Below, in pieces: positions 51,001 to 54,000 of a stretch of DNA of 64,000 nt. Where the stretch lies: NCBI RefSeq assembly GCF_050920415.1, contig NZ_CP169310.1. One strand, 5' to 3'. Made by a program: the position numbers. The stretch's first letter is position 1; the number at the start of each line of letters is the position of its first letter. The stretch comes from Escherichia coli (GTDB lineage Bacteria > Pseudomonadota > Gammaproteobacteria > Enterobacterales > Enterobacteriaceae).

Positions 51001-54000
51001 AAAGGAATGAAATGGTGAAACTGAGAGGAAAGGAAAGCGGTGACGAATCATGTCACCATATACAGAAAGATGTCTAATGGGGACTCTTCAGGTACCTGAA
51101 GAATCCCCATAACGCATTTAAAAGACACCCATCAGATATCCTCAAGGTATCCTATGAATTATTGACCTATTGCACCGTCACGTTCAAGCTTCTCTCTTAT
51201 AGCCTCAATAATATATGAGCTAAAATCCAGAGATGTTTTACTGGTCGCTTTAAGTTCCGCATGTGCTTCAAAATACGACAGCGGTATGGCCTTAAGATTC
51301 TTAGCCTTCGTCCTGGCAGCTACGGGACGACCTGAAACTTCCTCTGCACCTTCATTTGGCTGAGACGGGACTGTTGCTGTTACGGCAGAAGAAGAAGTTT
51401 GTAATCTGGCAGAATCCACCAGGTTTTTCAGTTTTTCAGCCTGTGCACTAAATTTCGCTTTGCTCATGAGATAACCCAGGATGTTTGTTAGATACTCAAA
51501 AGATATCTATTAAAACCCTAAAGGATACTATATGGATACCCAATGGATATACCTTACTGTTTATTATTTTCAATCAGATGATTGATTTCTTCGATCAGGG
51601 CAATAACTTCCTTACCTCCTGCCGAATAGCGCCCATGAACAGACTCAGTGATTCCCATCCCAGTCTCAATGACATCCTCAAATTCTGCACGAGCAGAAAT
51701 GCGGCTCTTCATCAGCTTCAGATGTTTGAACGATGGCAGGATTGCATCAAGCTTAGGGAATTTCTTCTTGTTAGGATTAACTTTACAGAGATACAGGTGA
51801 GCAATTATATCGGTCCCCATGATAGAGCTGATTTCGTCCAGTACTCCATCAAAATGCATCAAACCAATACGCTCAGTCAGGGAATCTTTTGAAGGGACAA
51901 TAACGCAGTCTGCAAAGGCAATCGCAGTACGGGTAAGATCTGAGTCAAATCCCCCACAGTCAATAAGTAACGTCTTATCGCTGTTCTTGTAGGGAGTCAT
52001 AATTTCGATTAACTCATCCACTGTTTTGGGTACTTTCACGGAAATTTCTTTTCCTTCAGGTCTCAGCCCCAGAATGATAGAAAGCCCAGTATGAGTATCC
52101 AGATCAACTGTATCAGACTTCATTTCACCAACAATGTTTACGGATGAAGTTGTCTTACCCACACCACCTTTGGGATGCGTATTAGCAATAACAGGCATAG
52201 TGTATCTCCAGAATCCAAATGTAATACCCATAAAGAACCCCAAAGACATCTTTCGGATATCCAAGAGGTACTCAACAGATGTTTTTTTACTCTATACCAG
52301 TCCGGCATGTCAACAGAATATGAAATACCGATAATATATCCATGAGATATCCGAAAGGGATTTAAAAAAGTCAGAGCTTAAGGAATTCTTTTGAGCATAG
52401 ACACTGCATCGGACTCAGGCATCGCAAACTGCACCCGGTGCCGTGCAGCCACATCCAGTGCAAACACCTTCGTGTAGACCTCTGTTGAGCTGATGGACTT
52501 ATGCCCCATCAGGCTCTGCAGGACCTTCAGTGGAATACCGGCATACAGCATATGCATCGCATAGGAGTGGCGGAATGTATGTGGTGTGACAAGAACAGAG
52601 AACGTCACACCGTCAGCAGCAGCGGCGGCAACCGCTTCCCCAATCCAGGTCCTGACTGTTCTGTCCGTCACTTCCCAGATCCTCACTTTCTCTGTTCTGC
52701 CGGTGCGACAGTTACGCCGCTCCCTGGGGATTTTCAGTGTTGCCACCATCGTCTGCAGCTGGCTGAGGTACCAGGCATCAGAGATGCGGAACCAGCCGGT
52801 GAGTCTGCTTACCGGCCGGCGATCTTCCTGCCGTTCTGGCTGTCTTTTCGGTCCGTTGTTTCAGGGTCGCAAGCTGCACAAACGGATACGGAGGCGCGAG
52901 CGAAAAATCCCCCCGTGTCAGCGCCAGTGCTTCATTAATGCGCGCACCGGTGTTCCACAGTGTGGCCAGCAGCATCTTGCGGCGCAGATCCGGGACGTAA
53001 TGGAGCAGGGCACTCACTTCCGGAGCCAGCAGATATTTCGGCAGTTCATCATGGACCATCGACATCTGGCGAAGTGCCAGAGCTGCCGGATAATCAATGA
53101 CAGCAGGAAGTTGTGGAGACTGTCCGGCAGAATACACTGCCGGTACCATGGCTGCAGACTGGCTGTGTATAACGGAGCCTGACATTTATATTCCCCAGAA
53201 CATCAGGTTAATGGCGTTTTTGATGTCATTTTCGCGGTGGCTGAGATTGTCAGCGCCAGTGATATAAGACGGTAATTCGCCATTTGGATTGTCCGCTCCA
53301 CCCAACATGTTGTTTCCTTAAGGTTCTCACACCAGAAAGGACATCAACATGCTGAGCAGAGAGGACTTTTACATGATAAAGCAAATGCGCCAGCAGGGCG
53401 CGTACATTGTCGATATTGCGACTCAGATTGGTTGCTCTGAACGGACGGTCAGACGCTACTTCAAATACCCTGAACCGCCAGCCAGAAAAACCCGCCACAA
53501 AATGGTTAAGCTGAAACCGTTTATGGATTACATCGACATGCGCCTGGCAGAGAATGTCTGGAATAGCGAGGTTATCTTCGCGGAGATTAAGGCAATGGGT
53601 TATACGGGCGGACGTTCCATGCTGCGTTACTACATCCAGCCCAAACGTAAAATGCGTCCGTCAAAAAGAACAGTTCGCTTCGAAACTCAGCCAGGATACC
53701 AGCTCCAGCACGACTGGGGCGAAGTTGAGGTGGAGGTTGCCGGCAACGGTGCAAAGTTAACTTTGCGGTTAATACGCTGGGGTTCTCCCGCCGCTTCCAT
53801 GTCTTCGCCGCACCAAAACAGGATGCTGAGCATACCTACGAATCACTGGTTCGCGCCTTCCGCTACTTCGGTGGTTGATCCTACCCTCGTAATATGGACA
53901 CTGCTCTAAGCGAGGTTCTGGTTTTCAAATTGTTCCGGACTGAGGCCGCCACACCAACTGTGCCGTCGCCAGCGATTGTAATCACATTCGATACAATTAA

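What the first reader, a model, noticed from the sequence alone, without database searches (positions are those of the whole stretch)
52378..53185. Tyrosine recombinase next to the ParA module is split by a frameshift
An integrase-like N-terminal ORF (52778-53185) and a C-terminal ORF with the R-H-R-Y catalytic motifs (52378-52749) lie in different frames on the same strand. Either the multimer-resolution recombinase is inactivated or there is a sequencing error at a homopolymer near 52750-52780.
Basis: seen in the sequence. Interest (0 to 1): 0.3.

Follow-up and report, generated by a model that had tools for sequence, protein, structure and literature searches.

The report
Frameshifted ResD recombinase pseudogene on plasmid
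This is a dead copy of the F-plasmid-type ResD recombinase gene, broken by one extra base and stripped of its promoter and target site by insertion sequences; it is an ordinary plasmid relic that public annotation already labels as frameshifted.

Summary
ORFs at 52778-53185 and 52378-52749 (minus strand, different frames) are two halves of one tyrosine recombinase gene. Intact homologues are 807 nt; the window copy is 808 nt.

- **The lesion.** The only indel is an extra A at window 52785 (CCG C[A]T CTC TGA), which creates a stop at 52780-52778. It is not in a homopolymer.
- **Not a sequencing error.** The exact 41-mer carrying the insertion occurs in 7 PLSDB plasmids and in plasmids of 15 of 5,426 complete E. 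coli genomes. I therefore read it as an inherited mutation of one plasmid clade.
- **Already annotated.** RefSeq calls it "site-specific integrase; frameshifted" in NZ_CP012500.1.
- **Identity.** With the base removed, the protein is 268 aa and 92.5% identical to F-plasmid ResD.
- **Catalytic residues.** They are split: Arg82 lies in the N-terminal ORF; His202, Arg205, His228 and Tyr237 lie in the C-terminal ORF.
- **Upstream loss.** Compared with the closest intact relative, 1,568 bp are replaced by an IS21-family fragment carrying an IS3 element. That segment held the rfsF site, the region just upstream of ccdA where a ccd promoter would lie, ccdA and most of ccdB. No rfsF core remains in the window.

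The module is a non-functional relic. Interest is low.

The parts
52378..53185 (-). resD pseudogene (ResD/D-protein type tyrosine recombinase), 808 nt against 807 nt in intact homologues
   Evidence: ORFs. Alignment to intact genes. The restored protein is 268 aa, 248/268 identical to F ResD, and differs at 4 residues from WP_000016974.1. Pfam PF00589 scores 65.4 bits on the restored protein. RefSeq annotates it as 'site-specific integrase; frameshifted'.
52785..52785 (-). The frameshifting mutation: one extra A (T on the + strand) after nt 400 of the gene, in the context GTTCCGC[A]TCTCTGA, not a homopolymer
   Evidence: It is the only indel against three homologues (column 476). The 41-mer centred on it is found only in 7 plasmids and 15 genomes.
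52778..52780 (-). Premature TGA stop created two codons after the insertion. It ends a 135-aa N-terminal fragment that contains Arg82.
   Evidence: Sequence; ORF.
52378..52749 (-). Out-of-frame C-terminal part of resD. It encodes H202, R205, H228 and Y237 in restored numbering. The ORF begins at an internal ATG with no evident Shine-Dalgarno sequence.
53186..53247 (-). Remnant of ccdB (last 62 nt, encoding ...[19 protein letters not shown]). Homology to intact ccdB-resD loci ends at 53247.
53248..55133 (.). IS material that replaces 1,568 bp present in the closest intact relative. It is an IS21-family left end with a truncated istA (about 53349-53875), interrupted by an IS3-family element (transposase 53906-55068). 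The lost segment held part of a MarR-family gene, rfsF, the region just upstream of ccdA, ccdA and 244 nt of ccdB.
   Evidence: blastn of L002 against the window. RefSeq annotation of the identical sequence. ORFs.
51554..52198 (-). ParA-family ATPase gene, intact, immediately downstream (context only). It is followed by a 102-aa ORF (51159-51467) and ParM/StbA (its 349-aa ORF spans 49766-50815).

Best explanation
The feature is a decayed multimer-resolution module of the F-plasmid ResD/rfsF type, carried on a large enterohaemolysin (ehx) F-type virulence plasmid.

In working relatives the layout is rfsF, ccdA, ccdB, resD, then parA. ResD is a 268-aa tyrosine recombinase that resolves plasmid dimers at rfsF. 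That function comes from the literature on F and was not tested here.

In this lineage two kinds of lesion are shown directly by the sequence:
1. A single extra A at 52785 shifts the frame after codon 133 and stops translation at codon 136. This separates catalytic Arg82 from His202, Arg205, His228 and the nucleophile Tyr237.
2. An IS21-family element, itself hit by an IS3 element, replaces rfsF, the region just upstream of ccdA, ccdA and most of ccdB.

The inference is that no active recombinase is made and that no substrate site is left. The gene is a pseudogene drifting neutrally. A further inference is that dimer resolution of the plasmid, if needed, falls to other recombinases. The near-identical complete plasmid NZ_CP012500.1 carries an intact 246-aa paralogue beside the RepFIB-type rep gene and a Tn3-family serine recombinase.
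For: - **Frameshift.** Searches show a single 1-nt insertion with an immediate stop.
- **Identity of the gene.** The restored ORF is 92.5% identical to F ResD and differs at 4 residues from the nearest intact allele. The synteny ccdA-ccdB-integrase-ParA-ParM is seen in intact relatives.
- **Catalytic residues split.** Searches give the full catalytic-domain match and the XerD alignment.
- **Inherited allele.** The identical allele is in 7 plasmids and 15 genomes, all on plasmids, whereas at least 3,190 plasmid records cover 80% or more of the locus and the listed ones are mostly annotated as an intact integrase.
- **Existing annotation.** RefSeq marks the gene as frameshifted.
- **Upstream replacement.** A 1,568-bp segment is replaced by IS sequence.
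- **rfsF located and absent.** The core ATCCGAAAACCCCAAGTTACGGATC sits at F nt 45924 and R64 nt 43622. This agrees with the positions given in PMC4398462 and PMC8004404. It has no match in the window at up to 3 mismatches. It also has no match in the fetched parts of NZ_CP012500.1, nt 9400-225292 of 225,292 minus the last 2.4 kb.
- **Drift.** All four amino-acid differences from the closest intact allele are changes where the window differs from all three compared homologues, and three lie within 26 codons after the frameshift. This fits relaxed constraint, though the numbers are small.
- **Recurrent loss.** Independent frameshifts of the same gene occur in pCFSAN004178P_02 and in E. albertii plasmids.
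- **Possible back-ups.** An intact paralogue (47% identity) and a Tn3 resolvase lie elsewhere on the complete relative.
Against: - No expression or activity data exist here, so the claim that nothing functional is made is inferred.
- The 135-aa N-terminal fragment could still be translated if transcription reads out of the IS. F ResD is reported to bind DNA and repress transcription (recalled from Lane et al. 1986, not checked here).
- The rfsF assignment rests on coordinates quoted in two papers plus a mosaic junction in my alignment. It does not rest on a published rfsF sequence that I could read.
- 1-9399 and 222901-225292 of NZ_CP012500.1 were not examined.
- The window's own plasmid differs from that record outside 49301-64000.
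Confidence: 0.93

Rival explanations
1. The extra base is a sequencing or assembly artefact and the real gene is intact.
For: Single-base indels are the commonest long-read error. One related plasmid (pCFSAN004178P_02) has its own 1-nt deletion in a CCC run, which could be such an error.
Against: The inserted A sits between C and T, not in a homopolymer. The exact 41-mer is present in 7 PLSDB records and 15 complete genomes, with several accession series and sources. The allele also travels with the same IS junction and the same linked substitutions across the 1,001-nt query, at 100% identity in five records and 99.9% in two.
Confidence: 0.03
2. The gene is recoded: ribosomes shift +1 at CUC UGA U, as at the prfB CUU UGA C site, and make full-length ResD at a low, regulated level.
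For: A +1 shift at the CTC-TGA junction would restore the ancestral frame (...P H L D A... in place of ...P L S D A...). A stop codon in the A site is a known stimulator of +1 shifting (established for prfB; from my own knowledge).
Against: The peptidyl-tRNA for CUC cannot re-pair on UCU. No Shine-Dalgarno-like stimulator lies just upstream. The allele is confined to one small clade, 15 of 5,426 genomes, while at least 3,190 plasmid records hold most of the locus and the listed ones are mostly annotated as an uninterrupted integrase, so there is no conservation of a recoding signal. The substrate site rfsF and the ccd region upstream of ccdA are deleted, which leaves nothing for the enzyme to act on.
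Confidence: 0.01
3. One or both fragments keep a function. For example, the 135-aa N-terminal piece could act as a DNA-binding regulator, or the two halves could reassemble into an active enzyme.
For: Both ORFs remain open. F ResD has been described as a transcriptional repressor as well as a resolvase (from memory, not verified here).
Against: The break falls inside the catalytic domain (Pfam match 51-240), not between domains. The C-terminal ORF starts at an internal ATG with no evident ribosome-binding site. The native upstream region is gone, and the consensus scan found no sigma-70-like promoter on the minus strand upstream. Derived non-synonymous changes accumulate just downstream of the frameshift. 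The same gene has been frameshifted at other positions in other plasmids, which argues for dispensability rather than a selected split.
Confidence: 0.03

Closest known systems
ResD (D protein) / rfsF multimer-resolution system of the E. coli F plasmid (NC_002483.1, WP_000016982.1)
   Same: The restored protein is 268 aa and 248/268 identical. The gene lies directly after ccdB, as in F. It has the same short architecture, with the catalytic domain spanning residues 51-240.
   Different: The reading frame is broken at codon 134. rfsF, ccdA and most of ccdB are missing. Downstream is ParA/ParM, as in IncI plasmids, rather than repE as in F. Homology to F ends near the 3' end of the gene.
ResD of IncI-complex plasmids (R64 NC_005014.1, ColIb-P9 NC_002122.1; integrase WP_001164198.1) and its ccdAB-linked variant in an IncI-gamma/K1 plasmid (NZ_CP022064.1)
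   Same: The same integrase-ParA-102-aa ORF-ParM-StbB order. DNA identity is 93.5% across the gene and the intergenic region. rfsF lies upstream of the two-gene operon, at R64 nt 43622 (PMC8004404).
   Different: Those genes are intact and keep rfsF. R64 and ColIb-P9 have a different N-terminus and a 137-aa ORF in place of ccdAB.
pCFSAN004179G (NZ_CP012501.1) site-specific integrase WP_000016974.1, the closest intact allele
   Same: 99.4% DNA identity. The flanks are the same, with ehxD on one side and ParA/ParM on the other.
   Different: It has no extra A. It retains MarR, rfsF, ccdA and ccdB where the window has IS21/IS3 sequence.
XerC/XerD-type tyrosine recombinases (e.g. E. coli XerD, PDB 1a0p)
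   Same: The catalytic motifs align: Arg I in 'TG.R..E', H-x-x-R, G-H and the Tyr nucleophile. NCBIfam XerD, XerC and XerA models hit at E-values of about 1e-21 to 1e-23.
   Different: All scores are far below the equivalog cut-offs (82 bits against 330 bits for XerD), so it is not a Xer orthologue. It lacks the N-terminal core-binding domain.
Tyrosine recombinase beside the RepFIB-type rep gene (WP_001066958.1) in NZ_CP012500.1
   Same: 47% identical over 258 aligned positions, with the same catalytic motifs. It is on the same plasmid backbone.
   Different: It is intact, 246 aa, and lies outside the window. Its target site is unknown to me.

Membership tests
Tyrosine recombinase / phage integrase superfamily (Pfam PF00589) | Catalytic-domain profile match above the gathering score | tested here: met
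   The restored 268-aa sequence scores 65.4 bits against a 27.1-bit cut-off, over residues 51-240. As encoded, the C-terminal fragment scores 51.3 bits and the N-terminal fragment only 16.4 bits.
Tyrosine recombinase / phage integrase superfamily (Pfam PF00589) | Catalytic Arg-His-x-x-Arg-His/Trp-Tyr residues present on one polypeptide | tested here: not met
   All residues are encoded: R82, H202, R205, H228 and Y237 by alignment to XerD. R82 is in ORF 52778-53185 and the others are in ORF 52378-52749, in a different frame. The catalytic Lys was not assigned.
F-type ResD/rfsF plasmid multimer-resolution system | Recombinase orthologous to F ResD | tested here: met
   248/268 identical after removing the extra base. 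It lies directly downstream of the ccdB remnant.
F-type ResD/rfsF plasmid multimer-resolution system | Uninterrupted resD reading frame (807 nt) | tested here: not met
   808 nt, with an extra A at 52785 and a stop at 52780-52778. RefSeq marks it 'frameshifted'.
F-type ResD/rfsF plasmid multimer-resolution system | rfsF recombination site in cis, upstream of the ccd/resD operon | tested here: not met
   The core ATCCGAAAACCCCAAGTTACGGATC was located in F, R64, ColIb-P9 and the IncI-gamma/K1 plasmid, and a variant core CCCCAAGTTCCGGATC in the two intact-context ehx plasmids. There is no match in the window at up to 3 mismatches. The segment that carries it in L002 is replaced by IS sequence. 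One caveat: the identity of the site was inferred from coordinates in PMC4398462 and PMC8004404, not from a published sequence.
F-type ResD/rfsF plasmid multimer-resolution system | Native upstream context (ccdA-ccdB and the region upstream of ccdA, where the ccd promoter would lie) | tested here: not met
   The region upstream of ccdA, ccdA and 244 of 306 nt of ccdB are absent. The consensus scan found no sigma-70-like promoter on the minus strand upstream of 53185. That scan is weak evidence. Co-transcription of resD with ccdAB and the promoter position were not tested or checked in the literature here.
F-type ResD/rfsF plasmid multimer-resolution system | Resolution of plasmid dimers in vivo | not testable with these tools
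   Requires a dimer-resolution assay.
XerC/XerD chromosome-dimer recombinases | Score above the NCBIfam equivalog cut-off | tested here: not met
   TIGR02225 XerD scores 81.9 bits against 329.6, and TIGR02224 XerC 75.1 bits against 335.15.

The most novel reading that the evidence does not exclude
The +1 shifted junction CUC-UGA-U is a low-efficiency recoding site, or the N-terminal 135-aa fragment has been kept as a stand-alone DNA-binding regulator of the neighbouring parA/parM operon. On either reading the 'pseudogene' would still have a role in plasmid maintenance.
Probability: 0.02. Interest if true: 0.45.

Novelty: already known. Interest (0 to 1): 0.07.

Why it matters
It matters little. 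The case shows that this ehx/F-type virulence plasmid clade has lost its ResD/rfsF dimer-resolution and ccdAB addiction module. The loss came from IS insertion plus a point frameshift. The clade presumably relies on other maintenance functions: two ParM systems, ParA, several toxin-antitoxin pairs, a RepFIB-linked recombinase and a Tn3 resolvase.

The allele (extra A at 52785 together with the IS21 junction at 53247/53248) can serve as a lineage marker for this plasmid clade. The recurrent, independent frameshifts of resD in related plasmids suggest the gene is dispensable in this context.

Tried and rejected
- **Homopolymer error.** Rejected. There is no base run longer than two at 52750-52790, the indel is C[A]T, and the allele is in 15 assemblies.
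- **Window identical to NZ_CP012500.1 throughout.** Rejected. A direct position-by-position comparison failed. blastn showed the window is collinear but lacks a ~1.3-kb segment at the position of the IS4-like IS421 transposase gene in that record, and has about 2.1 kb extra at 47175-49301. Only 49301-64000 is 100% identical.
- **rfsF downstream of resD.** I first expected this from the wording of PMC8004404, and I examined the resD-parA spacer, which has a 12-nt inverted repeat. The R64 coordinate 43,620 and the F coordinate 45,922, together with alignment A3, put rfsF upstream of the operon instead. The spacer repeats remain unexplained and are more probably parA control elements.
- **R64 accession.** AP005147 was not in the collection, so NC_005014.1 was used.
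- **Published rfsF sequence.** The papers found show it only in a figure that is not held.
- **Catalytic lysine.** Not assigned. The beta2-beta3 region is expanded and K126 is Q in F.

Full report
**Observation.** On the minus strand, the ORF listing gives a 135-aa ORF at 52778-53185 and a 123-aa ORF at 52378-52749 in another frame. Both match the Pfam Phage_integrase catalytic domain. The first covers profile positions 2-66 and the second covers 109-168. The coordinates and the 'split recombinase' description are therefore correct.

**Nature of the lesion.** I aligned the region with three homologues:
- the intact gene of pCFSAN004179G (NZ_CP012501.1), 99.4% identical;
- the intact gene of an IncI-gamma/K1 Salmonella plasmid;
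- pCFSAN004178P_02.

The window has exactly one indel, an extra A at alignment column 476, which is window position 52785 on the minus strand: GTTCCGC[A]TCTCTGATG. The gene is 808 nt against 807 nt. The new frame reads CCG CAT CTC TGA and stops at 52780-52778.

**Real mutation or artefact?** I searched a 41-mer centred on the insertion with megablast. Its 28-nt word requirement forces every hit to contain the extra base.
- It hit 7 of 72,556 PLSDB plasmids.
- It hit 15 of 5,426 complete E. coli genomes, always on a plasmid of 167-242 kb.
- Sources were lettuce, ground beef, crow, cattle faeces, human faeces and animal-source food, with several accession series.

Five records are 100% and two are 99.9% identical over the whole 1,001-nt query, including the IS junction. 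By contrast, at least 3,190 plasmid records carry most of the locus, and the listed ones are mostly annotated as an intact 'site-specific integrase'. The frameshift is thus an inherited allele of one plasmid clade. RefSeq already annotates it: NZ_CP012500.1 111685-112492, 'site-specific integrase', pseudogene, 'frameshifted'. The window is 100% identical to that record from 49301 to 64000.

**What the gene is.** Removing the extra A gives a 268-aa protein.
- It is 248/268 identical to F-plasmid ResD (WP_000016982.1).
- It differs at four residues from the closest intact allele: V28A, V140L, M154R and R159C.
- Pfam PF00589 covers residues 51-240 at 65.4 bits.
- NCBIfam XerD, XerC and XerA models hit far below their cut-offs, so it is not a Xer orthologue.

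Alignment to XerD (PDB 1a0p) identifies Arg I as R82 ('NTGARINE'), H-x-x-R as H202/R205, then H228 and the nucleophile Y237. The frameshift after codon 133 therefore separates Arg I from the rest of the active site. The statement that the C-terminal ORF carries 'R-H-R-Y' is inexact.

**Context.** In intact relatives the order is rfsF, ccdA, ccdB, resD, ParA, a 102-aa ORF, ParM, StbB-like. In F the order is rfsF/oriV1, ccdA, ccdB, resD, repE (PMC4398462).

I located rfsF as follows.
- PMC4398462 places two rfsF sites at the start of the F RepFIA segment, which begins at nt 45,922.
- PMC8004404 starts the R64 'rfsF to yfcA' segment at nt 43,620.
- Aligning the regions upstream of the operons in R64, ColIb-P9, F and two ccdAB-linked plasmids reveals a shared element, ATCCGAAAACCCCA(A/G)GTTACGGATC, at F 45,924 and R64 43,622.
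- ColIb-P9 switches inside this element. It follows the IncI-gamma/K1 plasmid to the left of it and R64 to the right. That is the behaviour expected of a crossover site.

The window has no match to this core at up to three mismatches.

blastn of the intact locus L002 against the window shows that L002 2433-4000 (1,568 bp) is absent. That segment holds most of a MarR-family gene, rfsF at 3132-3147, the region just upstream of ccdA, ccdA, and 244 of 306 nt of ccdB. It is replaced by window 53248-55133. The replacing sequence is an IS21-family left end with a truncated istA, interrupted by an IS3-family element. Only the last 62 nt of ccdB (53186-53247) survive. No rfsF core was found in the fetched parts of NZ_CP012500.1 either.

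**Mechanistic reading.**
- Shown: the recombinase ORF is broken inside its catalytic domain, and its upstream partners and cis site are gone.
- Inferred: no active ResD is made, and nothing is left for it to resolve, so the locus is a neutral relic.

Two observations are consistent with this. The four amino-acid differences from the nearest intact allele are all changes where the window differs from all three compared homologues, and three cluster within 26 codons downstream of the frameshift. The same gene is also independently frameshifted elsewhere: a deleted C at nt ~192 in pCFSAN004178P_02, and inserted T (after nt 62) and C (after nt 374) in E. albertii plasmids.

Redundancy is plausible. 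The complete relative carries an intact 246-aa paralogue, 47% identical, beside its RepB-family (FIB-type) rep gene, and a Tn3-family serine recombinase. Whether these resolve dimers of this plasmid was not tested.

**Rivals.**
- *Sequencing error* is very unlikely, given the non-homopolymer context and 15 assemblies.
- *Programmed +1 frameshifting at CUC UGA U* would restore the frame on paper. It lacks a re-pairing codon, an upstream stimulator and any conservation, and the enzyme would have no substrate.
- *A retained function of a fragment* cannot be excluded by sequence alone. The break lies inside a domain, the region upstream of the operon is gone, no minus-strand promoter was found upstream in the consensus scan, and the gene is recurrently lost.

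**Comparison and novelty.** The feature works like nothing, because it is a pseudogene. By descent it belongs to the F/IncI ResD family. It fails the defining functional features of the ResD/rfsF system: an intact ORF, rfsF in cis, and the native ccd upstream context. It is already flagged in RefSeq. I rate the novelty as 'already known' and the interest at about 0.07.

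Noticed in passing
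L004 (NZ_CP012498.1) 3063-3870; L014 (NZ_CP099872.1) 1563-2375: The same resD gene is independently frameshifted in related plasmids. pCFSAN004178P_02 has a 1-nt deletion in a CCC run at nt ~192. An E. albertii plasmid (L014) has two 1-nt insertions, after nt 62 and after nt 374; five further E. albertii records (H76-H80) likewise lack an integrase annotation but were not examined. This suggests recurrent loss of ResD in the ccdAB-resD-parA context.
   Followed up: partly
window 53186-53308 (-): The 40-aa ORF that RefSeq annotates as 'hypothetical protein' (WP_001364100.1) is a chimera. Its first half is read from the IS21-family end and its last 19 residues ([19 protein letters not shown]) are the C-terminus of CcdB.
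   Followed up: yes
window 53248-55133: Nested insertion sequences. An IS21-family element with a truncated and frameshifted istA (53349-53875) is interrupted by an IS3-family element (orfA/orfB 53906-55077). A 95-nt remnant of a MarR-family regulator gene follows (~55135-55229) before ehxD.
   Followed up: partly
window 52250-52261 and 52346-52357 (resD-parA spacer): There is a perfect 12-nt inverted repeat, CTTTCGGATATC / GATATCCGAAAG, with arms 84 nt apart, and three ATATCC(A/G)-type direct repeats. A weak TGGATAT match occurs downstream of F resD. These could be parA operator or centromere elements. Function unknown.
   Followed up: no
L010 (ColIb-P9) 5613-5637, L009 (R64) 3123-3147, L001 2123-2147: The mosaic junction between ColIb-P9, R64 and an IncI-gamma/K1 plasmid falls inside the 25-nt rfsF core. 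This agrees with the published idea that IncI 'Delta/Col' gene sets are swapped at rfsF (PMC8004404). The intact ehx plasmid L002 carries a variant core, CCCCAAGTTCCGGATC, with a different left arm.
   Followed up: partly
window 34139-34150 and 47175-49301, compared with NZ_CP012500.1: The window is not from NZ_CP012500.1 itself. It lacks a ~1.3-kb segment of that record at the position of the IS4-like IS421 transposase gene, and has about 2.1 kb extra at 47175-49301. Its first 34 kb are offset by about 800 nt, with 5 gaps.
   Followed up: no
NZ_CP012500.1 190661-191401 and 28625-29215 (outside the window; L012, L013): The complete relative has an intact 246-aa ResD-family paralogue (47% identity) next to the RepB-family rep gene, and a Tn3-family serine recombinase. 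These are candidate back-up resolution functions.
   Followed up: partly
window-equivalent regions of NZ_CP012500.1: The plasmid backbone is rich in other decayed genes. psiA is frameshifted, umuC is truncated and frameshifted, a DUF932 gene has an internal stop, and there are many IS fragments. It carries two separate ParM-type partition loci and several toxin-antitoxin pairs.
   Followed up: no
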